Shown: positions 9,669 through 24,838 of the stretch, in pieces
Numbering within the stretch: position 1 is the first letter of the stretch
How the letters are laid out: the number at the start of each line of letters is the position of its first letter
Assembly (NCBI GenBank): GCA_044220955.1
Contig: JBGAQA010000010.1
Location: forward strand, 58,100 to 114,462
Reading direction: 5' to 3'
Origin: Sandaracinaceae bacterium
GTDB taxonomy: Bacteria; Myxococcota_A; Polyangia; Polyangiales; Sandaracinaceae
Length of the DNA stretch: 56,363 nt
Notes under the pieces: generated by a model
Database searches by the model: none
Seen by the model: the letters and a program-made list of their open reading frames with translations, nothing else
Told to the model about the DNA's origin: nothing
Program-made: the position numbers and the translations under genes

Positions 9669-10733
9669 CTACTGCTCGCGACGGGCGATACGCCTGGCGA
9701 GCGACGCGAGCAACGCGCGGCCGCGCGGATCGACCGGCGCCGCGTCGAGCGCGTCCAGCGACGCGCGCAGGAGCGCCTCGAGCCGGGTCTCGACGCGGCC
9801 GCGGACGCCCGTGCGTTCCAGCATCTGCATGGCCTCGCGGATCGCGGCTTCCCCTGCGTCTGCGCGGCCGAGGACGCGCGACAGAGGGGCGCGGTCCGCT
9901 TCGGAGAGGCTCGTCTCGGCCTCCCGGACGATCGCCGTGCGCTTGCCGGCCCGCAGGTCGTTGCCCACGGGCTTGCCGGTGAGGGCCGCGTCGCCGAAGG
10001 TGCCGAGCAGATCGTCGCGCACCTGGAACGCCTCGCCGATCGGGACGCCGAAGCGGGCGAGCCCCTCGAGCTGCGCCGCCGTCGCGCCCGCGAGCGTCGC
10101 GCCGAGCGCGAGCGGTCCGTCGACCGTGTAGCTGCCCGTCTTGAGCTGCTGCATCCGCGTCACGTCGGCCGACCCGCGCAGGTCGAGCGCCTGCCCGGCC
10201 ACCACGTCGCGCTGCATGCGCGAGAACACCGCGAGCACCGCGGGCGGGCTCGGCGCGCGCGCCGCGCTCTCGAGCACGAGGTCCCACGCGTACGCGTTGC
10301 CGAGGTCGCCCGCCAGGATCGCGAGCGCGTCGCCGAGGTGCTCCTGACCGACGTCGGCCCGGAGCATCACGTGCACCGAGGGCCCGCCGCGCCGCTCGAG
10401 GTCGCCGTCCATCCAGTCGTCGTGGATCAACAGGTACGACTGCAGCACCTCGAGCGCCGCGCACGCGGCCACGACTTCCGCGAGGCGCGCGTCCGGCCGG
10501 ATCGCGCGCTGGGCCGCCACCATCACCGCGGGGCGTAAGCGCTTGGCCCCGCCGCGCATCGTCAGGTCCTCGAGCCGGGCCACGAGCAGCTCCGCCTCCG
10601 GCGCGCTCGTGCGGAGCTCGGCGCGCCGTGCCGCGAAGAAGGCCGCGAGGTGCGCGTCCGTGGCGTCCCGCACCTCGAGGACGAAGTCCCTCTCGCTCTT
10701 CCCGCTCGCGCCGTCGGCAGGCGTCGTCATCAT
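9669..10733 (-). CDS. Short-chain polyprenyl diphosphate synthase (FPP/GGPP synthase), ~354 aa
   Basis: GGAKRLRP, FARM YLLIHDDWMDGDLERRG (Tyr five residues before DDxxD, indicating short chain), KTGSY, SARM FQVRDDLL; start overlaps the ERG2 stop (TGATG). Confidence 0.9.
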   Translation of the reverse strand: MMTTPADGASGKSERDFVLEVRDATDAHLAAFFAARRAELRTSAPEAELLVARLEDLTMRGGAKRLRPAVMVAAQRAIRPDARLAEVVAACAALEVLQSYLLIHDDWMDGDLERRGGPSVHVMLRADVGQEHLGDALAILAGDLGNAYAWDLVLESAARAPSPPAVLAVFSRMQRDVVAGQALDLRGSADVTRMQQLKTGSYTVDGPLALGATLAGATAAQLEGLARFGVPIGEAFQVRDDLLGTFGDAALTGKPVGNDLRAGKRTAIVREAETSLSEADRAPLSRVLGRADAGEAAIREAMQMLERTGVRGRVETRLEALLRASLDALDAAPVDPRGRALLASLARRIARREQ

Positions 10734-11290
10734 CAGATCTTGCCTCGCATGAGGTTCCCGACCACGGCCTGCCCGTACATGCGGAACGTCTTGGCGACGC
10801 TGCGCGCATCGAGCGTGCTCGTGAAGGAGTCGGCGAGGCCGAAGGGCAGCATCGTCGGGATGATCCCCCGCGCGTACTCGAGCGCGTGGCACTGGCCCGG
10901 CATGCGATAGCCCTTGGCCGTGCCCTGTGGCAGCACGTGCATGTCGCCGGGCTTGTAGACGCTGCGCTGGAGCTGGCCCTCGGCGTAGGCCCACTGCTCG
11001 CCCTCGAGGATGAAGAAGTAGTCCGTCGCGAAGAAGCGCCCGGTGTGCCCCTCCGTGCCGATCGGCGTGCCGAAGATCATCAGGTACTCGGTGATCGACG
11101 AGTGGAGCAACATGAAGTGCCCCATCGCGCCGCCCGCGACGTTGAGCACCCACTCGGGCTTCTCCACGATGTAGTCGCGGTACTCGCCGCGCAGGTCGGC
11201 GTGGATCTCCTCGACCACCAGCTCGATCGGCTGGCCGATGCGGCGCTTCACGATGCGGTGCAGGACCTCGGGATCGAGAACGTGGGACAC
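10733..11290 (-). CDS. ERG2/sigma-1-receptor family C-8 sterol isomerase (no N-terminal TM anchor)
   Basis: WVLNVAGGAMG, LHSSITEYLMIFGTPIGTEGHTG, ALEYARGIIPTMLPFGLAD are hallmark ERG2-family segments. Confidence 0.9.
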   Translation of the reverse strand: MSHVLDPEVLHRIVKRRIGQPIELVVEEIHADLRGEYRDYIVEKPEWVLNVAGGAMGHFMLLHSSITEYLMIFGTPIGTEGHTGRFFATDYFFILEGEQWAYAEGQLQRSVYKPGDMHVLPQGTAKGYRMPGQCHALEYARGIIPTMLPFGLADSFTSTLDARSVAKTFRMYGQAVVGNLMRGKI

Positions 11291-11305
11291 GGCTCACTCC
11301 ATCCT

Positions 11306-14300
11306 TCAGGCGGTTCGGCGCCGGTACGCGCGGTGGTCCGCCAGCGGGTCTTCACGATAGAGCGCGGCGTAGCGCGTTTCGAGCGCCGCGTCGTCCGAGA
11401 CGTGCGTGAGGCACTCGGCGATGAGCGCCTCGACCTCGTCGCGTCGGATCTTCACCGGCTCGCCCGCCACGAACATCGCGTCGTTGCCCCGCGCCATCAC
11501 CAGCGTGCGAGCAGCCATCCAGAGGGGCAGCAAGCAGAAGAGGCGGATGCCGATCTCGGTCTTCGGGATCGCCAGCGCGTAGCGCAGCGCGCCGTCGAGG
11601 CGCTCGCGCGCCAGATCGAAGAGCGGCGCGACCGCCGCGTGCGCGCGGCGACGGTTCTCCGGGAGCGTGAGCTCTTCGATCTCGAGGCCCGCCGCGCCCG
11701 CGCTCGTGCGCGGGATGAAGGACACCTGTCGCGCGCGATCGTCGGTGACGTCCTTGAGGATGTTCACCAGCTGCAAGCCCTCGGCGAAGCTCTCCGCGTC
11801 CTGCCGGAGGCGTCGCTCGAGCAGGTTCGCCGTGCGCTCGTCCATGCCGCCGGCCTTCATCTCGTCGACGAAGAGCTCGGTGAGCATGTGCCCGACGGTC
11901 CCGGCCACGTAGTAGCAGTACCGATCGAGATCGGAGACCGTGTAGAGCGCGAGGATCCCGTCCGGCCCCGGCTCTCGTCGTGTGTAGAGGTCCATGCCGC
12001 GGGCCATCTCGGTGACCCAGCGCGTGCTGATCGTGATCGTGCTCGGCGCCTGCGCGCGGAAGACGCGCATCACGGTCGGCATCGCGCGCGCGAGCCCCAG
12101 CTCGGCGTCGTCGCCCGGCACGGGCTCGAGCGCCGCCGCGAGGTCCGCGGGGTCGCGGCCCGACTCCATGATCTCGAGGAACGTACGGAACAGACCGCCG
12201 CGCAGGTGCGCGCCGACGCTCGGGTGGTCCTCGATGGTGTCGGCGACGCGGCAGAGCAGGTAGCCGAGGGTGACCGCGACCTCGAGGCGGCCGGGCAGCA
12301 TCGCGATCGGCCGCGAGAAGGTGCGCGAGACCTGCTCGAGCGCGGTCTTGCAGAAGGCCCAGTCGGCGGCGTCGATCTGGAGCGGCGCGCTGCTCGGACG
12401 CTCGGCGGGCCGCGGGCCGCCGGCCTGCGCGTGCCGCCGCTGTCGCGCGCTCGCTGGACGGCCCGCGCGGTGGGCCTCGTACGCCGCGAACGCCTCCACG
12501 ATCTCGGCGTTCTCGCGCCAGGTCAGGCCTTCCGGAGCGAGCGTCGAGAGCGCGCGGGCGGCCGCGAGACGCACGGCCTCCGCCGGGACGCTGGCGCGAC
12601 AGAGCGCGGTGAGCACCGCCGCGGTGGTGCCGAGCGCATCACCGTCGTCGCCGTCGTGGAAGAAGCCGTCGTCGGAGGCGCGCTTCTCGAGCCACTTCGT
12701 CGCGCGCCGCACCGCGGGGTCGCCCGGGTTCGCCTCGGCGGCGACCAGCGCCTCCATCGCCTGCGCCGTCGCGATCACGGAGCCCTCGAAGGAGCCGTCG
12801 TCGCCCTGGCGGCTGCGCACGAACGTGGCTGCGCGCGCGAGCGGCGCCTCGAGGTCGGCGTCGGTCGCGTCGGGGCGGCGTCGGACGACCGCGTCGAGCG
12901 CGCGGCACGCGAGCATCGTCGCGAACAGGCTCGCGTCCGGCGCGTCCGTGGTCGGCGCGAACCCGCCGCCGCTGCGCTCGGCGGCGAGCAGCGTGCGGAT
13001 CGCGTCGGTGAGCCCGCTGATGGGCGTCTCGGCCCACGCGGCGCCGTCGAGGAGCAGCACGAGCAGGCCCGCGAGCGCTTCCGTCTCGACCGGCGAGCCT
13101 GCCTCGAAGAGGCGCGGGAAGCCCTCGAGGGCCAGGCGCCGGCGACCGATCGTCATCCGCGCGGCGATCGCGGGGCGCATCGAGCGCGCCGTGATCGCAC
13201 GCATCATCCGGATCGCCGGGATCGCGAGTCGACGATCGGGGATCGTCCCCATCTGCTGCGCGATTCGCTCCAGCTCGACCACGAGCGCGTCCGTGCCGCG
13301 CGCGAGGACCGGCTCGAGCGCGACGTCGGCGTCGCTGCGCCGCTCGCTGCTCGAATCGGGCTTGGGCGCGTCGAGGTCGGCGCCGACGAGCGCAGCGAGC
13401 GCCGGGATCGGGTGGAAGGGCGAGCTCTCCGCGCGATAGCGCTCGCGCAGGCGCGAGGGCACGAGCATCGCGGCGGGCCACTGCATCCAGCCGGCGAGCC
13501 CCGCGAGCTGCTGCGGTAGACGGTGCATCGCGCCGGTCCTGGCCGACGTCGAGGTCGTGTCCGAGAGCGCGCGTCCGGCCATCCGCACGAACGCGCTCGA
13601 GAACGTGCGCTTGCGCAGATCCTGCGAGGCGAGGATCGACATCGTCCGGCGACGCTCGTCCTCGCTCTCGCGGAGCGTCTCGAACATCGCGCGCCGGAGC
13701 TGGACGGCGCTCTCGTCCTCGCGGCGGAAGCAGTGGTAGAGCGCGCTGCTCAGCACCTCGGGCACGTAGGCGCGCCGGCGCTCCGCGTACTCCTCGAGCG
13801 AGCGCGCCTCGACGAGCGCCTCGGCGTCGAGGAAGCCGAGCGTCATCCCGTTCGCCGTCATCGGGTGGACGTGGCCCACGGCGTCGCCCACGAGGGCGAC
13901 CTGCGCACGCCCGGGCGCCGCCTCTCGACCGAAGTGCGCGCGCGGCCGGAAGCGATTCGCGGCCCACCCCGCGAGCCCGCGCTCGACGGCCGCGCGGAAC
14001 GCCGCCTTCATCGAGGGAGGGAGCACGGGCGCGAACGCGTCCCACACGAACGCGGGCGCGCGGGCGCCGGCGCCGTAGGAGACGGGCAGATCGAGGCAGC
14101 CGCGCACGACGTCGTCCGCGATACGGTAGAAGAGCGCGGGGCCGGGACCGCCGAGCACGACGTGGCCGAAGCCTTCGCTCGGCAGGGTGACGCCCCGCAG
14201 CTCGACCGACGCCATGTACGAGAGCAGCGTGCCGTGATCGGCGATGCCGAGCCGCTCGCGCACCGTGGACGCGCGGCCGTCGGCGCCGACGATGCGCTCC

Positions 14301-14743
14301 GCTCGCACGTCGAGCGCGCCGCCCTCCTTGCGCTCGATCCGGACGACGTGGCCGTCGACGTCCTTCACGCGTGCGTGAGGCAGCCAGTCGATGCCCGACG
14401 TCGCCGTCACGGCAGCGCGGAGCGCCGCGACGATCCCGGCGTGCTCGCACGCGAGCGCCGTGCCCTCGGCGTAGGGCATCTCGATGCCGGGCGAGCCGTC
14501 GTCGGGGAGGATGACGAAGCCGTAGCCGGTGCGCGCGTGCGAGGCCTCGAGGCGGCCGATGCGGAGCCGGTCGAGCACCCCGACGGCGGGCGGATGCAGC
14601 CACTCGCCGGCGAAGCGCGTCGACACCTTCGGGTCGGCCTCGACGAGCAGCACCGATGCGCCACGTCGCGCGAACGCGACCGCGCAGACCGAGCCGACCG
14701 GGCCGCCCCCGGAGATCACCACGTCATAACCGCGTCGAATCAT
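11306..14743 (-). CDS. Fusion: squalene epoxidase-like FAD monooxygenase + degenerate triterpene-cyclase barrel repeats + squalene synthase
   Basis: N-terminal: GGGPVG, AGEWLHP, GADGRAS, VGDAVGHVHPMTANGMT. Middle: QW-like repeats (RSRQGDDGSF, KRASDDGFF) with no DCTAE or DxDD. C-terminal: VSRTF, CRVADTIED, YCYYVAGTVG, LQLVNILKD, FCLLP, VKIRR. Confidence 0.88.
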   Translation of the reverse strand: MIRRGYDVVISGGGPVGSVCAVAFARRGASVLLVEADPKVSTRFAGEWLHPPAVGVLDRLRIGRLEASHARTGYGFVILPDDGSPGIEMPYAEGTALACEHAGIVAALRAAVTATSGIDWLPHARVKDVDGHVVRIERKEGGALDVRAERIVGADGRASTVRERLGIADHGTLLSYMASVELRGVTLPSEGFGHVVLGGPGPALFYRIADDVVRGCLDLPVSYGAGARAPAFVWDAFAPVLPPSMKAAFRAAVERGLAGWAANRFRPRAHFGREAAPGRAQVALVGDAVGHVHPMTANGMTLGFLDAEALVEARSLEEYAERRRAYVPEVLSSALYHCFRREDESAVQLRRAMFETLRESEDERRRTMSILASQDLRKRTFSSAFVRMAGRALSDTTSTSARTGAMHRLPQQLAGLAGWMQWPAAMLVPSRLRERYRAESSPFHPIPALAALVGADLDAPKPDSSSERRSDADVALEPVLARGTDALVVELERIAQQMGTIPDRRLAIPAIRMMRAITARSMRPAIAARMTIGRRRLALEGFPRLFEAGSPVETEALAGLLVLLLDGAAWAETPISGLTDAIRTLLAAERSGGGFAPTTDAPDASLFATMLACRALDAVVRRRPDATDADLEAPLARAATFVRSRQGDDGSFEGSVIATAQAMEALVAAEANPGDPAVRRATKWLEKRASDDGFFHDGDDGDALGTTAAVLTALCRASVPAEAVRLAAARALSTLAPEGLTWRENAEIVEAFAAYEAHRAGRPASARQRRHAQAGGPRPAERPSSAPLQIDAADWAFCKTALEQVSRTFSRPIAMLPGRLEVAVTLGYLLCRVADTIEDHPSVGAHLRGGLFRTFLEIMESGRDPADLAAALEPVPGDDAELGLARAMPTVMRVFRAQAPSTITISTRWVTEMARGMDLYTRREPGPDGILALYTVSDLDRYCYYVAGTVGHMLTELFVDEMKAGGMDERTANLLERRLRQDAESFAEGLQLVNILKDVTDDRARQVSFIPRTSAGAAGLEIEELTLPENRRRAHAAVAPLFDLARERLDGALRYALAIPKTEIGIRLFCLLPLWMAARTLVMARGNDAMFVAGEPVKIRRDEVEALIAECLTHVSDDAALETRYAALYREDPLADHRAYRRRTA

Positions 14744-14917
14744 GGGGTCACTCCACGGGTAGCCAAATCATCGAAATCGTTGCCATCCGGCGGCCAAGTG
14801 CGCGATTCGTCTCCGGGTCACTGCGGGCGTCCAGAAACACGGCTCCCCGTGCGAATCGCGCACCTTGCCGCCAGTTCTCCATCGTTTCAGCCAGTTGCGT
14901 GGGCATGGAGTGACCCC
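14744..14917 (-). promoter_or_regulatory. Structured intergenic element with nested inverted repeats; the outer stem covers the RBS of the epoxidase/squalene synthase gene
   Basis: GGGGTCACTCCA (14744-14755) / TGGAGTGACCCC (14906-14917); inner GTGCGCGATTCG (14798-14809) / CGAATCGCGCAC (14852-14863); hairpin CACGG-CTCC-CCGTG (14838-14851). Confidence 0.6.
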
Positions 14918-14918
14918 G

Positions 14919-15995
14919 TCAGTAGAGGAAGGGGATCATCTTGAAGGTGGCGCGCTTGCAGTACTCGTCCCAGAGCGCGCCGTACTTCTCGCGACAGCGC
15001 CTGTCGTCGCGCCAGGCACGGTGGGTGAGAAGGCAGAGCAGCCAGACCGGAAGTAGATAAGGCACCATCGAGTGCGTGCCCGAGAGCAGCGTGAAGGACC
15101 AATAGACCAGGATCTCACCCGTGTAGTTGAGCTTGCGGCCGATTCCCCAGAAGCCCGATACCAGGATGCGGCCGCCGAGCGTCTCGGCGGGCTTGCCCCA
15201 GATGCGGATCGAGGGATTGCGCTTGAACTCGTCCTTCTGCTGGTTGGCGCCCCGGAACATCCAGAGCCCGGCCGCGAACATCACGGGCAGCGCGAGGGTG
15301 GCGAACGTGGAGAGCGGCTCGGTGCGGTCGAGCAGGTACCAGCCGACCACCGAGTACGCGAAAGGGACGAACGCGAGGTCGCCCCACACGAGCATGAAGC
15401 CGAATCGCTCGGCGACGATGTCCCACGTGTAGAGCATCCCGTACTCGAACTGGAAGTAGTTGAAGACGTAGATCGCCGTGAAGGCCTGATAGAGGATCAT
15501 CGCGGTCGACAGCTCTCCGTCGCGCTCCCACTGCACCACCGCGAACGATGCGTTGATGACGAGCAGGCCGATGAGCGAGGGGCGATAGGCCCACATCTTG
15601 AGATCGACCCCGAGCAGCTCCGGGTTGAGCTCCACGCCGTACCAGAGGTCGGCGAACAGGCCCTCGCGCACGGCGTCCTTCCGACCGCGCCCCGAGAAGT
15701 AGAGCCAGGCGGTCAGCGCGATCGAGATCGCGTTGGCCGCGACGAAGAGCGCGAGGATCGTCCTCGGCACGACGCTGAGCGAGAAGAGGCCGAGCAGCTG
15801 CCCGCCGCCGAGGCACGCCACGGTGATCCCGAGGATGGGCAGCCCGTTGAGCCGGTACGCGCGGCGCGAGCCGTCGGCGAGCGGCGCGCCCTGCCGGACC
15901 GGCCCGGGTACGACGAGCGAGAGCACGAACATCGCCAGGACGAAGCCGAGCGCGAGGGCGGAGCCGACGAGGAGCGAGTGCGGGTCGAGCGACAT
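14919..15995 (-). CDS. ERG4/ERG24-family sterol reductase (Delta14 / Delta7 / LBR-like)
   Basis: Multi-TM protein; GVELNP, DLKMW..RP, DIVAERFGFMLVWGDLAFVPFAY, GFWGIGRKLNYTGE, LLTHRAWRDDRRCREKYG..W..YC. Confidence 0.92.
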   Translation of the reverse strand: MSLDPHSLLVGSALALGFVLAMFVLSLVVPGPVRQGAPLADGSRRAYRLNGLPILGITVACLGGGQLLGLFSLSVVPRTILALFVAANAISIALTAWLYFSGRGRKDAVREGLFADLWYGVELNPELLGVDLKMWAYRPSLIGLLVINASFAVVQWERDGELSTAMILYQAFTAIYVFNYFQFEYGMLYTWDIVAERFGFMLVWGDLAFVPFAYSVVGWYLLDRTEPLSTFATLALPVMFAAGLWMFRGANQQKDEFKRNPSIRIWGKPAETLGGRILVSGFWGIGRKLNYTGEILVYWSFTLLSGTHSMVPYLLPVWLLCLLTHRAWRDDRRCREKYGALWDEYCKRATFKMIPFLY

Positions 15996-16010
15996 GGGGA
16001 GTCCTCGGGC

Positions 16011-19000
16011 TCAGTGCCAGGTCGGCTGCGGCGGCGAGGGGCTCGTCCCGGCGCTCTCCGTCCGTGTCTTGCGGCGCGCCTCGTAAGCGCCCAGCGCCCA
16101 GACCGGGAAGTAGCGGCGATAGAGGACGTAGTCGAGCAGCGCCGTGTGGAAGAAGACCCCTTCCGGATCCTGCTTCGGCCACGTTCCGTCGTCGCTCTGG
16201 CGCTTGGCGAGGAACGAAGCCGCGCGGGTCATCGCCGCGAAGTCGGGCTCGTGCGCGTCGGCCAGCGTCAGCAGAGCCCACGCCGTCTGCGTGGTCTGGC
16301 TCTCGGTGTGCTCGACGTATCGGCCGACCTCGCCGCTCGAGAAGTGCTCGCCCCAGCCGCCGTCGGGGCGCTGCCGCGCGAGCAGCCAGGCGCAGGCGCG
16401 ACGGATCGCCGGGTCGTGCGGCGGGACGCCCGCGTGGATCAGGCCGCGCACGCCGAACATCGTCCCGTAGACGAAGTGGACGCCCCACGCGCCCTCCCAC
16501 GATCCGTCGGCGCGCTGCTGCGAGCGCAGGCAGCGCACGCCGCGGGCGATCGCCCGGGCGATCTCGGCCGAGAGGACGCCCGGGTGCTCGCGGCCGAAGC
16601 GCGCGAGCGCGGCGATGCACGACGCGGTGCATTCGGAGTAGGACTTCTCGGTCATCGAGTCGCCGAACATCTCGGCCGGGTTGAGCCACTCGAGCGGGAG
16701 ATCGACGCGTCGCGACTCGTAGCTGCCGAAGCCGCCGTCCGAGTTCTGCGTGCGCAGGATGAAGCGGACGCCGGCGCTGAGCGCCTCGATCGACGCGCCG
16801 CCACCGCGCGCGGCGAGCGGCGCGGCGTCCATCCGGGCCAGGAGCGCCTCGGCCGTGCAGTCGCTCACCGGCCAGCCGTGCCAGACGCCCGCGAAGCAGT
16901 AGCCGCCGGCGGGATCGATGCGGTGGTGCTGCGCCTCGCGCCCGGTGCCACGCTGGATCTGCTGGGATGCGAGGAACTCGTCGGCGCGCAGCAACGCGCT
17001 CTTGACGTCGACGTGGGGCGCGGCTGCGGCGAGCGCCTGGCCCGCGAACGCCGTGTCCCACGTCGCACTGCGCGCTCCCGCGACGCGCGCTCCCTTCTCG
17101 GCGTCCTCCCAGATCCACCCGTCGAAGTGCTCGAGCGCCTCGAGCAGGTCGGGGTCGGAGGGATCGGCGGCGTGGAGCGCGACCATGTTCAGGAGCCCGC
17201 TCACCGGCGAGAGGCAGGTGTAGTGGGTGCTGCGCAGCTCGTAGCGGATGTTCTCGCGCAGGTTGGCGAGCAGCCCGGCGCGCTTGTCGGGCGAGCGCAG
17301 CGTCTCGAAGCGCACGAGCCCTGCGTAGATCGCCGCGAGCGGCTTGCTCCACGGCGTCAGCAGATCGGCGGCGCGCAGGGACGTCCGCGCGCTCGAGAAG
17401 TCGACCTTGTCGTAGCCGCCGGGGAAGAGCTCGTCGCGCAGCTCGAGGACGCGCGGCGTGAGCGGCGCGGAGAAGCGAGATCCCGACACCGTCGCCATGG
17501 CCATGTAGATGAGGCGCGTGTGGCAGTAGTAGCGGCTCGGGTGTGCGGGCAGCCACTCGGGCAAGAGCCACGCCTCGGGCGGCACGGGGCTGACGCCGTT
17601 CCACTCGTAGAGGCCGGCGATCGCGAGCCAGAGCTTGCCCCAGCTCGGCACCTGCGCCGCGCCGCCCTCGGCTCGGATGAACTCGTAGGCGCGCGCGAGG
17701 AGCGGGTCGTGCTTCTCCACGCCGAGCAGGCGCGCCGCGACGTACACGAGGATCGTCACGAAGAGGTAGGGCTTGCTGAGCTCGTGCAGACCCCAGCTGC
17801 CGGCCGCCAGCCGCGTGTCCTCGAAGTGGCGCAGCAGGTTGGCCCGCCGCTCGCTCGCGAGCGGGCGTCCCATCGCGTACATCGCCAGCACGTACTGCGC
17901 GGCGAGCATCGGGCACCACACGACCTCGCCCTCGAACGAGCCGTCCTCGGCTTGCTCGGCGACGAGCGCGCGGACGCTCTTGTCGAGCGCGCGCTCGATC
18001 GCGCCGCGCGAGTCGCGCCGATCCGGGATGAGCGCCACGGCGGCGCCGCCGCCTCGCGTGGAGCGCAGGAACGCGCCGTAGCGCTCCTCGACCGAGGGAC
18101 CCTGCGCGCGCGCGGCGAGTCGGCGCTCGGCGACGGCGGAGAGAGCGTCGGTGAGGTGGTAGGTGCCCGCGAGCAGGGTCCCGAGGCGAACGCCGACGTC
18201 CGCGAGCGCGGCGGCGGTCTCGCGCGGGGAGGGCCCGAGGGCTCCGCGCCGCAGCAGCTGGTTGCCGCCGTAGAGCACGGTGCCGAGGAACGACCCGGCG
18301 AGGCGCGCGCGGCCCCCCTCGCCCACGAGGAACCCCATCGTGCGGAGGCGCTCGCCCGGGTGCTTGCGGAAGAGGTGGTAGACGGCCTGCCGCACGGCCA
18401 CGGTCGACTCGGCGTGATCGGCGAACACCTCGTAGAGCGCGATCGCGAGCATCTCGGGGATGCGCGCACGCGCGACGCGCTCGCGCCGGTAGGCCGCGAC
18501 GCTCTCGGCCTTCGCGAGCGCGATGGCGTCCTCGAAGCCGAGCGTGAGACCGAGCGCGGTGAGCGGGTGGTGCGCGCCGATTGCGTCACCGACGAGCGCG
18601 AGGCCTTCACGGCCGAACTCGCAGCGGGGGTGGATGACGTTGTCGGTCGAGCGCCACTCCTTGCTCGCGAGCGTCCGCGCGAGCGCGGCGCCGAGCTCGC
18701 CCGGCAACACCGAGCGGTACGTGTCGGAGAGCACCTGAGACGCTGCGCCGGGATCGCGCGGGAGGGCCGTCGAGAGCGGCACGTCGAGCGTCAACCGCAC
18801 GGCGCGGGGCCCGATGCGGTGCGCGATCACCGGTCCGGGGGCGCCGACGAACACGTGGCGGTAGCCCTCGAAGGGGAGCGCCACGTCCTCCAGCAAGAGG
18901 CCGATCGCGCGTGAGAACACGTGCGTGCTCGCGCCCCCACCGATGGACGTCACGCTCACCTCGCTCGCGCGATCGAGCGTGCCGCGTCCCGTCGCGCCGA

Positions 19001-19472
19001 CGACCAGCTCGGCGTGCACGGAGTGAATGCCCGCGGTGCGTCGCTCGGGCCGCTCCACCTCGAAGGTGACGACCTGCCCGTCGATCCGGTGCACCCGCGC
19101 CCAGCTCACGAGCTCGACGCTCGCGCGCGCCTCGACGTGCGCACGCAGCGTCTCGACGAGCAGGGCGTGCTCGCACGCGAGCCCGGCCTTGCCCGTCGGA
19201 TACGGCAGCACGATCGCTTCCGAGCCGTCTTCGGGGTGGATCGTGAATCCGCGGCCCGTCGCGTAGGGCACGGCGGGCGCGAGGTCGACGCCGAGCCCAT
19301 CGAGGATCGACACGGCGTTCGGGTGCAGCCACTCGCCCGCGAGGCGATCCGACGCACGTGGGTCCGACTCGAGCACGAGCACGCGCTTGCCCTGGTGAGC
19401 GAACGCGAGCGCGGCGACGCAGCCCACCGGGCCCGCACCACAGATCACGACGTCGTAGCGTGCCGCGCTCAT
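16011..19472 (-). CDS. osc: Squalene epoxidase-like domain fused to oxidosqualene cyclase
   Basis: N-terminal GAGPVG, AGEWLHP, VGDAIGAHHPLT. Cyclase: PSWGKLWLA..GLYEW, PPEAWLLP, catalytic VSDCTAE (DCTAE at 16848-16862), WLNPAEMFG, QW repeats QNSDGGF, QRADGSW, QRPDGGWGE, QSDDGTW. Confidence 0.95.
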   Translation of the reverse strand: MSAARYDVVICGAGPVGCVAALAFAHQGKRVLVLESDPRASDRLAGEWLHPNAVSILDGLGVDLAPAVPYATGRGFTIHPEDGSEAIVLPYPTGKAGLACEHALLVETLRAHVEARASVELVSWARVHRIDGQVVTFEVERPERRTAGIHSVHAELVVGATGRGTLDRASEVSVTSIGGGASTHVFSRAIGLLLEDVALPFEGYRHVFVGAPGPVIAHRIGPRAVRLTLDVPLSTALPRDPGAASQVLSDTYRSVLPGELGAALARTLASKEWRSTDNVIHPRCEFGREGLALVGDAIGAHHPLTALGLTLGFEDAIALAKAESVAAYRRERVARARIPEMLAIALYEVFADHAESTVAVRQAVYHLFRKHPGERLRTMGFLVGEGGRARLAGSFLGTVLYGGNQLLRRGALGPSPRETAAALADVGVRLGTLLAGTYHLTDALSAVAERRLAARAQGPSVEERYGAFLRSTRGGGAAVALIPDRRDSRGAIERALDKSVRALVAEQAEDGSFEGEVVWCPMLAAQYVLAMYAMGRPLASERRANLLRHFEDTRLAAGSWGLHELSKPYLFVTILVYVAARLLGVEKHDPLLARAYEFIRAEGGAAQVPSWGKLWLAIAGLYEWNGVSPVPPEAWLLPEWLPAHPSRYYCHTRLIYMAMATVSGSRFSAPLTPRVLELRDELFPGGYDKVDFSSARTSLRAADLLTPWSKPLAAIYAGLVRFETLRSPDKRAGLLANLRENIRYELRSTHYTCLSPVSGLLNMVALHAADPSDPDLLEALEHFDGWIWEDAEKGARVAGARSATWDTAFAGQALAAAAPHVDVKSALLRADEFLASQQIQRGTGREAQHHRIDPAGGYCFAGVWHGWPVSDCTAEALLARMDAAPLAARGGGASIEALSAGVRFILRTQNSDGGFGSYESRRVDLPLEWLNPAEMFGDSMTEKSYSECTASCIAALARFGREHPGVLSAEIARAIARGVRCLRSQQRADGSWEGAWGVHFVYGTMFGVRGLIHAGVPPHDPAIRRACAWLLARQRPDGGWGEHFSSGEVGRYVEHTESQTTQTAWALLTLADAHEPDFAAMTRAASFLAKRQSDDGTWPKQDPEGVFFHTALLDYVLYRRYFPVWALGAYEARRKTRTESAGTSPSPPQPTWH

Positions 19473-19485
19473 GGGGTCTCGCTGC

Positions 19486-20643
19486 TCAGAGGGCGGCCAT
19501 GAGCTTGGCCGTCACCGACTTCATCGCCGGCTGCTCCGACGCCTTGATCATCCAGTCGAGCGCGTCGGTGCGGATGAGCCGCCGGAAGACGCCGCCGCCG
19601 AGGAACGAGAGGCGGAAGGCCTTGTTGCAGCGCTTCTCGTACTCGCGGAACGCCTGCGGCTCGCGCATGCGTCCGCCGAGCACGTCGGCGATCGCCTCCG
19701 CGCCGAGCATCCCCGACTTCATGCCCTGGTAGATGCCCTCCGCCGTCGCCGGGTGCGTCATCAGCCCCGACTCGCCGACGACGACGGCGCCGGGGCGCGT
19801 CAGCTTCTCGATCTCGTACGACCAGAAGACGGGGTGACCCTTCCAGCCGCCGAGCTGCGTCGCGCCCTTCAGCCGCTCCGCGTAGTGGACGTCGAGGAAC
19901 CTCTGGAACAGCTCGCGGGCGTTCTTCCGGGCGGGAGCGCCCGACGTGGCCGCGCCGATCTTGCCTGCGCCCTCGGGATCCTCGTAGCAGATGCCGATGT
20001 TGACGCGCGTGTCGCTCTCCGGGAAGAGCCAGCCGTAGTACGGCTCCACCATCCGATCGAAGATCATCTCGACGTGGCCGGGCCGGAACGGGACCCCGTC
20101 CCACCAGCCCATGATCGCCTGGATGACGCGCTTGGGTCGCTGCTCTGGCAGGCCCACGCGGCAGTGAGAGCCGCCCGCGATGATCGTGAAGCGTGCATGG
20201 ATCTGCCGGCCATCGCGGGCGCGAATGCCGGCGATCCGGCCCTGGTCCGTGATCACGTCGCTCGCGTCGAAGTTCGGCACGAACTCGGTGCCACGCGCGA
20301 TCGCCTTCTTGAGCAGGATGTGATCGAGGATGCGGCGCTGGCAGACGACCGCGTCGGCGACGTCACCGGCGGACTGCCAGCTGTCGAGGCCGCCGGGCGT
20401 GACGATGCGGATGCCGGTGATGCGGTACGAGTGCGGCTCGACCTCGCTCCACACGCCGAGCTTCTTGAGCGTGTCGATGCCGCGGGGCGAGATGCCGCTG
20501 CCGCACGTCTTGTCGCGGGGGAAGTCGTGACGGTCGACGAGGACGATCCTGCCCACTCCGAGCGATCCGAGGTGGGCGGCCGCGGCCGTCCCCGCGGGGC
20601 CCGCGCCGAGGATCACGACGTCGGCCTGGGTCGTGGAGGTCAT
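19486..20643 (-). CDS. Geranylgeranyl-reductase-family FAD-dependent oxidoreductase
   Basis: GAGPAG, FPRDKTCGSGI, YGWLFP...VNIG, VVGESGLMTHPATAEGIYQGMKSG. Confidence 0.85.
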   Translation of the reverse strand: MTSTTQADVVILGAGPAGTAAAAHLGSLGVGRIVLVDRHDFPRDKTCGSGISPRGIDTLKKLGVWSEVEPHSYRITGIRIVTPGGLDSWQSAGDVADAVVCQRRILDHILLKKAIARGTEFVPNFDASDVITDQGRIAGIRARDGRQIHARFTIIAGGSHCRVGLPEQRPKRVIQAIMGWWDGVPFRPGHVEMIFDRMVEPYYGWLFPESDTRVNIGICYEDPEGAGKIGAATSGAPARKNARELFQRFLDVHYAERLKGATQLGGWKGHPVFWSYEIEKLTRPGAVVVGESGLMTHPATAEGIYQGMKSGMLGAEAIADVLGGRMREPQAFREYEKRCNKAFRLSFLGGGVFRRLIRTDALDWMIKASEQPAMKSVTAKLMAAL

Positions 20644-20686
20644 TCTGCGCCCCCGTCTGTGCCGGCTGCGGCGATGCGTGACGCGC

Positions 20687-23379
<2,693 letters not shown>

Positions 23380-23383
<4 letters not shown>

Positions 23384-24477
23384 GCTCGTCCCCGCAGATC
23401 GATGACGCGCACGTCGCGCAGCCCCGCGATCGTCGTCACGCCGGTGCAGAAGCAGATCACCCGGAGCTCGTAGAGGATCGCGTCGAGCGCGCGCGCCACC
23501 GCCTCTTCGCTCTCGTGCGCGGGCCCGAGCAGGGGCGCCGCGAGCGCCACCGCGTCGGCCCCCAGCGCGAGCGCGACGGCCACGTCCATGCCGGTGCGGA
23601 TCCCGCCGGACGCGATCACCGCGCGCTCGCGGAACACCGCACGCACGGTCCGGAGCGAGTCGGCGGTCGGCACACCGAACCCCGCGAGCCTGCGCCCGAC
23701 CTCGGCGTGGACGCTCTCGTCGGCGGCGCGGTGGGCCTCCACGTGCGCCCACGACGTGCCGCCGACGCCGGCGACCTCGACGCCGGCGAGCCCGATCCCG
23801 GCGAGCTTCTTGGCCGTGCGCTCCGAGATCCCGGAGCCGACCTCCTTCGCGAGGACGGGGAAGGGCAGCGCGCGGACCACGTCGCGCATGCGCTCGACGA
23901 GCCCCGAGAAGCGTGTGTCGCCCTCGGGCTGGATCGCCTCCTGCAGCGGATTGAGGTGGAAGAAGAGCGCGTCGGCCGAGACCGCGCGGATCATCGCCTC
24001 GAGGTCCGCGCGGGTGACGCCGTAGTTGAGCTGCACGGCGCCGACGTTGCCGACGAGCAGCGGGAGCGAGGGCGCCACGCGTCGCACCGCGAACGTCGGC
24101 GCCAGCTCCGGCCGCAGCAGCATCGCGCGCTGGGAGCCGAGCGCCATGCCGATGCCCGCCCTCCCGGCGGCGCGCGCGAGGCGGGCGTTGACACCCTCGG
24201 ACCGCTCCGAGCCACCGGTCATGGCGCCCACGATCAGCGGCGCCGCGAGCCGCTTTCCGAGCAGCGTCGTCGCGAGATCGACGTCGGCGAGGTCGACCTC
24301 GGGCAGCGCGTCGTACTCGAGCGTGTACCGCCCGAGACCCAGGGCGGGGCCGCGCGAGCCCACGTCCCGAGAGAGCACGACGTCGAGGTGGTGGTCCTTG
24401 CGAGACGACACGATCGCGCCCTCGCGCTCTCGCGCGCGCGTGCCGCTCGTTCCCAGGACTCCCACCTCGTCCGTCAT
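23380..24477 (-). CDS. fni: Type 2 (FMN-dependent) isopentenyl-diphosphate delta-isomerase, ~365 aa
   Basis: RKDHH, GAMTGG, GSQR, HLNPLQE..QPEGD, KEVGSG, GGTSW, ASGGIR; GGGAG RBS before ATG 24477. Confidence 0.93.
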
Positions 24478-24838
24478 CACCACTCCCGAAAAGGGGCGGC
24501 ACGCTACCCAAAACGTCTCGACGTGTCGAATCGATGTCCAGAGTCCGCGCAGGACCCCATGATTTCGGCCGAAACCACGGGGTGCAATGTTGCACGGACG
24601 CGCCGTCCGACTCGGCACCTCGTCACCAGGTCCACAACAATTGAGCGCGGACAACCGTTGTCTCGACAACGAGGTTGGGACCTGCTTTGTCGCGCAAACG
24701 TTGCCTCGACAAGAGATCGCGCCGCGCCGCGCGCGGGACCGGCGACCGGCTCGGGCCGGGGCGCCGGGAGAGCGGGCGCACGCCGCGCGCCGTGGATCCT
24801 GGCCGCTCGGCCGAATGATCCCATACTGCCACCGCCGT
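24478..24838. promoter_or_regulatory. Divergent promoter region of the sterol operon and the GMC gene, with several palindromes
   Basis: AT-richer than the flanks; TCGAC-GT-GTCGA (24518-24529), GTGCAA-TG-TTGCAC (24582-24595), GACAAC-C-GTTGTC (24650-24662). Confidence 0.5.

What the first reader, a model, noticed from the sequence alone, without database searches (positions are those of the whole stretch)
14744..14917. Nested structured RNA that can sequester the RBS of the squalene synthase/epoxidase gene
The only long spacer in the operon is bounded by a perfect 12-bp inverted repeat. On the mRNA, GGGGUCACUCCA starts 1 nt after the reductase stop and complements UGGAGUGACCCC, which contains the GGAG Shine-Dalgarno and abuts the AUG; the helix extends inward by U-G and G-C pairs. 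Inside is a second perfect 12-bp stem (14798-14809 / 14852-14863), extendable with bulges to about 14789-14872, and a 5-bp hairpin with a GGAG loop. Inference: a cis-regulator of the committed step. It could be long-range translational coupling (a ribosome terminating upstream melts the anti-RBS), a ligand or protein switch, or a processing site. A MITE with terminal repeats is the alternative.
Basis: partly seen in the sequence, partly recalled or inferred. Interest (0 to 1): 0.75.

Follow-up and report, generated by a model that had tools for sequence, protein, structure and literature searches.

The report
Mobile hairpin repeat in sterol operon
The long hairpin between two sterol-synthesis genes is one copy of a selfish palindromic DNA repeat scattered about 65 times through this genome, not a purpose-built RNA switch, although it probably does hamper translation of the gene behind it.

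Summary
The 175-nt spacer (14744-14918, minus-strand mRNA) has the perfect 12-bp terminal inverted repeat, which extends to 14 bp, the inner 12-bp stem and the GGAG-loop hairpin. It folds at -92.7 kcal/mol, z = -6.1.

It is not a dedicated regulator. The same element occurs at 65 loci in this genome, and its arm GGGGTCACTCCA occurs 104 times against 0 for the reversed control. Two inverted arms bracket a single Y1/HUH tyrosine-transposase gene (RAYT/TIRYT type) in this genome and in a congener. The arm fits the published TIRYT repeat motif GGGGWSAS.

All eight relatives with the same gene junction lack the element; seven have 9-41-nt spacers.

The insertion starts 1 nt after the reductase stop and ends exactly at the SE-SQS ATG. 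Its terminal GGAG is now the only Shine-Dalgarno and lies in the basal helix. The predicted cost of opening the ribosome-binding site is 19.3 kcal/mol, against 7.5-14.5 in relatives. Any regulatory effect is inferred, not shown.

New member of a known kind; modest interest.

The parts
14744..14917 (-). One full-length copy (174 nt) of a dispersed palindromic repeat: a REPIN-like dimer of two inverted ~70-nt arms.
   Evidence: Self-genome BLAST and nhmmer find 65 loci. The alignment of copies shows invariant termini. The RNA fold is -92.7 kcal/mol, z = -6.1.
14906..14917 (-). 5' terminal arm motif GGGGTCACTCCA on the mRNA strand. It begins 1 nt after the reductase stop codon.
   Evidence: The motif is exact 104 times in the genome, against 0 for the reversed control. 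It fits the published TIRYT repeat motif GGGGWSAS.
14744..14755 (-). 3' terminal arm TGGAGTGACCCC. It holds the only Shine-Dalgarno (GGAG, 14751-14754) 7 nt before the ATG and abuts the ATG with 0 nt between.
   Evidence: P(unpaired) of the SD is 0.0002.
14798..14863 (-). Inner conserved boxes (GGTGCGCGATTCG and its complement) forming the perfect 12-bp inner stem. Between them lie the central loop with the GGAG-loop hairpin (14838-14851) and a copy-specific 12-nt insertion (about 14812-14823) that holds a partial arm copy.
   Evidence: The inner boxes are conserved across 32 full copies with some compensatory pairs.
14919..15995 (-). Upstream gene: ERG4/ERG24-family sterol reductase (358 aa), with stop TGA at 14921-14919.
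   Evidence: Pfam PF01222, E = 1.6e-74.
11306..14743 (-). Downstream gene: squalene epoxidase + squalene synthase fusion (1145 aa), with start ATG at 14743-14741.
   Evidence: Pfam SE, FAD_binding_3 and SQS_PSY. The N-terminus aligns with orthologues.

Best explanation
The spacer is a non-autonomous mobile element. It is a ~165-175-nt palindromic dimer of two inverted ~70-nt terminal repeats, with the anatomy of a REPIN. It belongs to a family whose arms also bracket a single-copy Y1/HUH tyrosine-transposase gene of the RAYT/TIRYT type (a 'TIRtron'). By analogy with IS200/IS605 and RAYT systems (inferred, not tested), the transposase acts in trans on the arms as single-stranded DNA hairpins and copies the gene-less dimer into extragenic sites, mostly just behind stop codons. 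One copy landed in this lineage in the very short junction between the sterol reductase and SE-SQS genes. Shown here: family membership, the transposase link, absence from orthologous junctions, and the exact stop/start geometry. Inferred: in the polycistronic mRNA the element extrudes as one long hairpin that brings the UGA and the AUG to its base. The original ribosome-binding site is gone and the arm's own outward-facing GGAG serves instead, locked in a 14-bp helix. Independent initiation on SE-SQS is therefore strongly disfavoured. Translation probably depends on ribosomes arriving from the reductase gene or on transient opening, and the hairpin may also act as an RNA decay barrier or processing site. 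These effects are by-products of a selfish insertion, not an evolved switch.
For: Dispersal in the genome:
- Self-genome BLAST gives 102 matches.
- An nhmmer profile gives 65 loci: 33 of at least 136 nt, one of 122 nt and 31 of at most 90 nt.
- The exact arm occurs 51 times forward and 53 reverse in G000, against 0 for the reversed control.

Transposase link:
- Pfam Y1_Tnp scores 28.8 bits (cut-off 23) at G000:C77.
- The best NCBIfam hit is 'REP-associated tyrosine transposase', E = 4.4e-17.
- The only PDB hit is E. coli TnpA-REP 4ER8, with the HUH motif and the Tyr region aligned.
- The gene is bracketed by inverted arms at C77:64131-64205 and 64908-64979.
- In G004 a 59%-identical orthologue at C112:17958-18641 is bracketed by exact arms at 17878 and 18718.

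Patchy distribution: the arm count is 104, 31, 19 and 7 in four of 32 family genomes and at most 2 in the other 28.

Orthologous junctions:
- In 8 relatives the spacers are 15, 41, 22, 22, 16, 9 and 14 nt, plus one unrelated 162-nt spacer.
- The family profile hits none of 29 relatives' SE-SQS loci at E < 0.005.

Structure as a family trait:
- All 32 full copies fold as the same long hairpin, -78 to -120 kcal/mol.
- This copy is below the median in stability per nt.

Ribosome-binding site:
- The opening cost is 19.3 kcal/mol, against 7.5-14.5 in 8 orthologous junctions.
- A second copy (C33:21440-21602) has the same geometry. It sits behind the metH stop, and its TGGAGTGACCCC abuts the Met1-Cys2 start of a class-II amidotransferase.

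Literature: the arm fits GGGGWSAS, the TIR motif of TIRYT genes (passages of PMC3733652; PMC6006769).
Against: - No movement was seen directly. Contigs from three independent studies all carry the filled site and no empty-site joint.
- The NCBIfam score (62.3) is below that model's equivalog cut-off (80).
- The arms lack the GTAG/GT[AG]G tag and the short self-palindrome that define classical REPs (read against PMC3733652).
- Copies are only 67-81% alike outside the conserved boxes, unlike the near-identical REPIN populations of Pseudomonas. The family may therefore be old or no longer active.
- The SE-SQS ORF is intact, so translation is evidently not abolished.
- With a ribosome footprint imposed on the stop codon, the equilibrium model re-pairs the SD with downstream coding sequence (P unpaired 0.001). 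The coupling step is not supported by that calculation.
Confidence: 0.87

Rival explanations
1. Exapted coupling device. The element arrived as a mobile repeat but has been retained because the hairpin ties SE-SQS translation to translation of the reductase gene. A ribosome terminating 1 nt before the 5' arm melts it and frees the SD and AUG held at the helix base.
For: The stop is 1 nt from the 5' arm and the ATG 0 nt from the 3' arm. The SD is provided by the arm at an ideal 7-nt spacing. The same geometry recurs at a second operon junction. The site is filled in populations from three studies. The ancestral junctions are short enough for coupling.
Against: Only 2 of 107 arms abut a verified start. 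There is no conservation beyond this genome. The equilibrium fold with a ribosome on the stop does not expose the SD. The geometry is also what survivorship alone would leave, since only insertions that keep an SD near the ATG are viable.
Confidence: 0.12
2. RNA processing or stability element, or partial terminator. The long hairpin acts as an RNase III site, a 3'-exonuclease barrier or a transcriptional roadblock that uncouples the two halves of the sterol operon.
For: The duplex is very stable (-92.7 kcal/mol). Forty-one of 62 classifiable family loci lie between convergent genes, that is at 3' ends, against about 25% of all gene pairs genome-wide. The literature attributes such roles to REPs and MITEs (passages of PMC3733652).
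Against: There is no U-tract, and no terminator-like site was found. No RNA end data exist: the one RNA run covers only 14947-15158, at 96% identity. Nothing is specific to this copy.
Confidence: 0.12
3. A dedicated ligand- or protein-sensing riboswitch-like regulator of squalene synthesis.
For: The structure is nested with a sequestered SD. An internal AGUGACCC could compete with the 3' arm for the 5' arm.
Against: There is no Rfam match at E up to 10. There are 65 copies at unrelated loci. The element is absent from all orthologous junctions. The competing segment lies in a copy-specific 12-nt insertion.
Confidence: 0.01
4. A classical MITE derived from a DDE-transposase insertion sequence, with terminal inverted repeats and target-site duplications.
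For: It has perfect 12-nt terminal inverted repeats, a size of about 165 nt and no coding capacity.
Against: No direct target-site duplication flanks the copies (read). No arm pair in this assembly brackets any gene other than the Y1 transposase gene. Half-elements ('singlets') are common.
Confidence: 0.03

Closest known systems
TIRtrons / TIRYT-associated TIR repeat families (Di Nocera, De Gregorio & Rocco 2013, PMC3733652; equated with TnpA-Y1 subclass 2.1 by Quentin et al. 2018, PMC6006769). I read passages only.
   Same: A RAYT-like Y1 transposase gene is flanked by long inverted repeats rather than GTAG REPs. The repeat carries GGGGWSAS (here GGGGTCAC). Copies are dispersed as singles and dimers in moderate numbers.
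   Different: The copy number here (65 loci, 104 exact arms) is at the high end of what those passages call 'moderately abundant'. The host is an uncultured Myxococcota-like lineage, and neither 'Myxococc' nor 'Deltaproteobacteria' occurs in the main text of either paper. I did not place the protein in subclass 2.1 or test for its C-terminal HTH.
REPINs mobilised by RAYTs (Bertels & Rainey 2011, PMC3116915; Bertels et al. 2017, PMC5581495). I read passages.
   Same: Two inverted conserved ends are separated by a less conserved spacer that still pairs, giving a hairpin in ssDNA or mRNA. The location is extragenic. Singlets look like remnants. The same sequence flanks a single-copy tyrosine transposase gene. 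Distribution among relatives is patchy and lineage-bound.
   Different: There is no GTAG tag. Each arm is ~70 nt and is not itself a short palindrome. Copies are much more diverged outside the boxes. No excision reads were seen.
Transcribed bacterial MITEs that fold in mRNA, such as Correia/NEMIS and ERIC (named in PMC3733652; details of their RNase III processing are recalled, not read).
   Same: These are operon-internal insertions that are co-transcribed, form long hairpins, and can change the stability or translation of neighbouring genes.
   Different: Those elements have DDE-type partners and TA or similar target duplications. This one has a Y1 partner and no target duplication.
E. coli REPs within 15 nt of stop codons that stall terminating ribosomes (Liang, Rudd & Deutscher 2015, Mol Cell). 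This is recalled: the search did not list it and I did not read it.
   Same: A stable hairpin begins 1 nt after a stop codon. Across the family, 52 of 107 arms have a stop triplet within -2 to 6 nt.
   Different: No experimental data exist here, and the hairpin also ends at the next gene's start codon.

Membership tests
REPIN / RAYT system | [quoted passage not shown] | tested here: met
   all 32 full copies fold as one long hairpin, and the outer 12 bp are invariant in 32 of 32.
REPIN / RAYT system | Many dispersed extragenic copies in one genome | tested here: met
   65 loci. 41 are convergent, 16 tandem and 5 divergent intergenic, with 3 unclassified (crude gene calls).
REPIN / RAYT system | The same sequence flanks a single-copy Y1 (HUH + Tyr) transposase gene | tested here: met
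   for G000; for G004. A second, weaker Y1_Tnp hit at C231 was not examined.
REPIN / RAYT system | The REP unit is a short (20-40 nt) palindrome tagged by GTAG / GT[AG]G | tested here: not met
   Arms start (C)GGGGTCACTCCA and are ~70 nt. The definition is from PMC3733652 and PMC6006769.
REPIN / RAYT system | Evidence of mobility (excision or insertion polymorphism) | tested here: inconclusive
   The site is filled here and empty in 8 relatives. No empty-site joint appears in contigs of 3 studies, and contigs drop rare variants.
TIRtron / TIRYT | Y1 transposase gene flanked by long terminal inverted repeats unrelated to GTAG REPs | tested here: met
   ~72-75-nt inverted arms lie on either side of the 238-aa ORF.
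TIRtron / TIRYT | TIR carries the motif GGGGWSAS | tested here: met
   GGGGTCAC lies at the outer end of every arm.
TIRtron / TIRYT | Protein belongs to TnpA-Y1 subclass 2.1 with a C-terminal HTH extension | not tested
   The protein has about 80 residues beyond the core, but no subclass profiles were available.
Known cis-regulatory RNA (riboswitch, leader, attenuator) | Match to a curated family, or conservation with covariation at orthologous loci | tested here: not met
   Rfam gives 0 matches at E up to 10. The element is absent from 29 relatives' loci.
Classical MITE | Direct target-site duplication flanking the terminal inverted repeats | tested here: not met
   Flanks of 12 aligned copies and of 107 arms show none. 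Instead, 26 of 107 arms have a one-sided tandem duplication across the junction.
Intrinsic terminator | GC hairpin followed by a U-tract | tested here: not met
   0 sites in 14500-15200.

The most novel reading that the evidence does not exclude
The arms of this repeat family may be built so that insertion at gene ends is tolerated. Each end carries an outward-facing GGAG 7 nt from the terminus. The element inserts within 0-3 nt of stop codons. Because it is a near-perfect palindrome, it extrudes from the mRNA and leaves the upstream stop and downstream start side by side. On this reading a TIRYT-type repeat can sit inside tightly coupled operons, here the sterol pathway, and convert short-range coupling into hairpin-gated coupling. 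The stop-codon preference would then reflect real targeting of gene ends rather than mere survivorship.
Probability: 0.15. Interest if true: 0.6.

Novelty: new member of a known kind. Interest (0 to 1): 0.3.

Why it matters
The result removes a tempting false lead. A striking structured RNA at the committed step of a bacterial sterol pathway turns out to be selfish DNA, so it should not be used as evidence for riboswitch-like control of sterol synthesis in Myxococcota. It also documents a fairly large TIRYT/REPIN-like repeat population in an uncultured wastewater myxobacterial lineage. The family shows three quantifiable habits that bear on how Y1 transposases choose sites and how hosts tolerate them:
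- Arms abut stop codons: 52 of 107 have a stop triplet within -2 to 6 nt, against 9.5% of controls.
- Arms can donate a Shine-Dalgarno sequence to the next gene.
- One-sided 'stutter' duplications occur at arm junctions.

For anyone expressing this sterol cluster heterologously, the element is a practical warning: the SE-SQS gene's only ribosome-binding site is buried in a 14-bp helix.

Tried and rejected
- Rfam at E up to 10 on 14500-15200 gave nothing.
- The sigma-70 promoter and intrinsic-terminator scans gave nothing. The scan does not cover other promoter types.
- An equilibrium fold with a ribosome footprint forced on the stop codon did not free the SD. It re-paired with downstream coding sequence (P unpaired 0.001). 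This neither supports nor excludes kinetic coupling.
- For expression, the only RNA run (X20) gave one 212-nt contig at 14947-15158 with 8 differences. It likely comes from a relative and does not reach the element, so it is no evidence either way.
- For an empty-site variant in populations, no joint was seen in contigs of X2, X5 and X12. Contigs drop rare variants, so this is not evidence of immobility.
- I searched for an autonomous element with the same arms and a longer interior. Among 126 arm matches with at most 1 mismatch, none was found in G000 except the Y1 gene locus. The assembly is 88% complete in 301 contigs.
- The flanking-gene classification used crude gene calls (GC3-filtered ORFs). 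It misfiled at least one locus: C33:21440 was called convergent but is tandem.
- The C-terminal motif regex found the reductase gene upstream of SE-SQS in only 8 of 19 relatives' loci examined. The other 11 were not compared at the junction, though the profile search covered them.
- I considered a classical MITE with target-site duplication and rejected it, because no flanking direct repeats were found.
- The Liang et al. 2015 paper on REPs near stop codons was not listed by the search, and a suspected citing passage was not found. It is cited from memory only.
- Earlier-findings look-ups by place and by sequence returned nothing for this genome.

Full report
**Observation.** The genes here run on the minus strand. 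The ERG4/ERG24-family sterol reductase ORF (14919-15995; Pfam PF01222, E = 1.6e-74) ends with TGA. One C follows, then GGGGTCACTCCA. Its perfect complement TGGAGTGACCCC directly abuts the ATG of a 1145-aa squalene epoxidase + squalene synthase fusion (11306-14743). The helix extends to 14 bp. Inside lie a perfect 12-bp stem (14798-14809 / 14852-14863) and a 5-bp hairpin with a GGAG loop. The 191-nt RNA folds at -92.7 kcal/mol. Shuffles give -66.8 +/- 4.2, so z = -6.1, and 0 of 200 shuffles fold as well.

The operon on this strand reads, in order:
- HMG-CoA reductase + 3-beta-HSD-like fusion
- FAD monooxygenase
- squalene epoxidase + oxidosqualene cyclase fusion
- sterol reductase
- [spacer under study]
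- SE-SQS fusion
- polyprenyl synthetase

The spacers are 43, 13, 15, 175 and 8 nt, so this is indeed the only long one.

**A dispersed repeat.** Searching the window's own genome (7.5 Mb, 301 contigs, 88% complete) with the 191-nt stretch gave 102 matches on both strands at dozens of other places. A profile built from 12 full copies found 65 loci: 33 of at least 136 nt, one of 122 nt, and 31 half-elements of at most 90 nt.

The terminal 12-mer is exact 51 times forward and 53 times reverse, while the same letters read backwards occur 0 times. In 32 full-length copies the outer 12 bp are invariant. Two inner boxes (GGCGG..AGGTGCGCGATTCG and its complement) are conserved with a few compensatory pairs. 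The stretch between them varies but still pairs within each copy. All 32 fold into the same long hairpin (-78 to -120 kcal/mol), and the sterol-operon copy is below the median in stability per nucleotide. The remarkable fold is thus a property of the family, not of this locus. This copy differs from the other aligned copies by a 12-nt insertion in the central loop that holds a partial arm copy.

**The transposase.** A search of the genome with Pfam Y1_Tnp gave two hits. The better one (G000:C77, a 238-aa ORF) has this support:
- It scores above the Pfam cut-off (28.8 against 23 bits).
- Its only NCBIfam match is 'REP-associated tyrosine transposase' (E = 4.4e-17). At 62.3 bits this is below the equivalog cut-off of 80.
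- Its only PDB match is E. coli TnpA-REP (4ER8, E = 0.001), with the HUH motif (HAH) and the Tyr-containing YVELNPVRAG segment aligned to the corresponding segments of the solved chain.

The gene sits between two half-elements in inverted orientation, C77:64131-64205 and 64908-64979, whose outer ends are the same 12-mer. In the congener G004 a 59%-identical orthologue (C112:17958-18641) is likewise bracketed by exact arms at 17878 and 18718. Homologues in public data are labelled transposase or RayT and come from Myxococcota, Polyangiales and Kofleriaceae metagenome genomes.

**Distribution and the orthologous site.** Among 32 genomes of the same family the 12-mer is abundant in only four (104, 31, 19 and 7 copies) and occurs at most twice in the other 28. 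Among 16 further genomes of the order it occurs at most twice.

I fetched the SE-SQS locus of 29 relatives. In 8 of the 19 whose junction I examined, the reductase gene is recognisably just upstream. Their spacers are 15, 41, 22, 22, 16, 9 and 14 nt with ordinary SD-like purine runs, plus one 162-nt spacer of unrelated sequence in G004. The family profile hits none of the 29 relatives' loci apart from a marginal 35-nt match (E = 0.006) in one. The most economical reading is one insertion in the lineage of this genome. Contigs from three separate studies of sludge or wastewater carry the filled site, and none shows an empty-site joint. The insertion therefore looks fixed in that population, though contigs would miss rare variants.

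**Family habits.**
- *Location.* Of 62 classifiable loci, 41 lie between convergent genes, 16 between tandem genes and 5 between divergent genes. About a quarter of adjacent gene pairs genome-wide are convergent. The gene calls are crude and at least one locus was misfiled.
- *Stop codons.* Arms hug stop codons. Fifty-nine of 107 arms have the stop of a coding-looking ORF within -12 to 30 nt upstream, against 111 of 3000 random non-coding positions. Fifty-two of 107 have a stop triplet within -2 to 6 nt, against 9.5% of 4758 control GGGG sites. In six arms the element's first G completes a TAG. The same holds in G004, for 13 of the 29 arms examined in 17 fetched loci.
- *Junction duplications.* Twenty-six of 107 arms carry a tandem duplication that spans the junction: the last 6-17 nt of flank plus the first 3-30 nt of the arm, sometimes repeated again. 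Random positions show this in 16 of 3000 cases, and G004 in 2 of 29 arms. I have no tested explanation. Replication slippage at the hairpin foot and abortive transposase nicking followed by fill-in are both conceivable.
- *No target-site duplication.* No direct repeats flank the element.

**What it does to the operon (inferred).** The element fills the junction exactly: TGA, C, element, ATG. No native spacer is left, so the only SD for SE-SQS is the GGAG inside the 3' arm, 7 nt from the ATG.

In a 298-nt mRNA model the SD has P(unpaired) = 0.0002. Opening positions -15 to +12 costs 19.3 kcal/mol, against 7.5-14.5 (median about 12) for the eight orthologous junctions modelled the same way. De novo initiation should therefore be markedly harder than in relatives.

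The hairpin brings stop and start to the same helix end, and a terminating ribosome would have to unwind the 5' arm. However, the equilibrium model with a ribosome on the stop re-pairs the SD elsewhere, and nothing tests kinetics. The SE-SQS ORF is intact with full domain coverage, so expression is not lost.

A second copy shows the same geometry. At C33:21440-21602 the element follows the stop of a methionine-synthase C-terminal gene, and its TGGAGTGACCCC abuts the ATG of a class-II glutamine amidotransferase. That gene's Pfam match begins at residue 1 (Met-Cys), which fixes the start. Either such placements are the only survivable ones inside operons, or the arm is suited to them. I cannot tell which.

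**Comparison with what is known.** The anatomy matches Bertels & Rainey's REPIN (PMC3116915, passages): inverted conserved ends, a pairing but variable spacer, singlets, an extragenic location and a single flanking tyrosine transposase. It fails the classical REP definition, because there is no GTAG tag and the arms are ~70 nt rather than short palindromes.

It fits better the 'TIRtron/TIRYT' class of Di Nocera et al. (PMC3733652, passages). These are RAYT-like genes flanked by long inverted repeats that share GGGGWSAS (here GGGGTCAC), with moderately abundant dispersed copies arranged as singles and dimers. Quentin et al. equate TIRYTs with TnpA-Y1 subclass 2.1 (PMC6006769, passages). I did not classify the protein to subclass.

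Di Nocera et al. also report REPs lying mostly downstream of genes and sometimes supplying the stop codon. Earlier reports of this scan describe TIRYT-type hairpins wedged at stop codons in other phyla. Those are unchecked notes, used only as leads. The effect of stop-proximal REPs on terminating ribosomes in E. coli (Liang et al. 2015) is recalled, not read.

**Verdict.** This is a new member of a known kind. The residual interest lies in the exact stop/start placement, the donated SD, and the family's stop-codon and junction-duplication habits.

**Limits.**
- The genome is a draft metagenome assembly.
- Gene calls were heuristic.
- No RNA or mobility data exist.
- All functional consequences are predictions.
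- I did not open the supplements of the cited papers (TIRYT alignments and lists). They might show whether a myxobacterial member is already catalogued.

Noticed in passing
window 9669-24595 (minus strand): The sterol/isoprenoid operon is built largely of fusion proteins: HMG-CoA reductase + 3-beta-HSD/epimerase-like (20687-24595), squalene epoxidase + oxidosqualene cyclase (16011-19472), and a second squalene epoxidase + squalene synthase (11306-14743). There are thus two epoxidase domains in one operon. The SE-SQS fusion is full length in most of the family's genomes.
   Followed up: partly
G000 genome-wide, e.g. C155:77660-77715, C273:300-380, C26:990-1030: 26 of 107 repeat arms carry a one-sided tandem 'stutter' duplication spanning the flank/arm junction, and it often includes the neighbouring gene's stop codon. 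Random positions show this in 16 of 3000 cases. The mechanism is unexplained.
   Followed up: partly
G000 genome-wide; also G004 loci L052-L067: Repeat arms start within 0-3 nt of stop codons far more often than chance. In several convergent gene pairs the element occupies the whole space between the two stops, for example C232:12162-12327 and C260:13970-14133.
   Followed up: partly
L013 (G004) junction between the reductase and SE-SQS genes: The congener G004 has a 162-nt spacer at the same junction. Its sequence is unrelated and G/C-rich with GGGGCC/GGCCCC runs, possibly another inserted element. Its predicted RBS opening cost is low, 7.5 kcal/mol.
   Followed up: no
L056 (G004:C21:24030-24790) versus G000:C228:22338-22542: The same gene end (...KYRKLTKN stop) carries an arm in both genomes. 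In G004 the two arms are 534 nt apart and enclose about 400 nt with a possible 102-aa ORF that has Cys-rich CxCG..KKC-like motifs. In G000 the site holds a 205-nt element with a partial duplication. The stop is TGA+tc in one genome and a TAG completed by the arm's G in the other.
   Followed up: partly
G000:C111:105936-105987 and C265:21015-21073: Miniature versions (52 and 59 nt) keep only the two terminal 12-mers around a short loop.
   Followed up: no
G000, full-length copies: There are two size classes (about 164-170 nt and about 146-153 nt) with different inner boxes (AGGTGCGCGATTCG versus AGATGCGC...). There are also two alternative sub-terminal boxes (CACACCC... versus CACGGGGTC...), often mixed within one dimer, which gives an internal loop as in the sterol-operon copy.
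   Followed up: no
G000:C231:59281-59739 (L040): A second, weaker Y1_Tnp match (28.6 bits) lies in a 401-aa open frame. I did not check whether it has its own repeat family.
   Followed up: no
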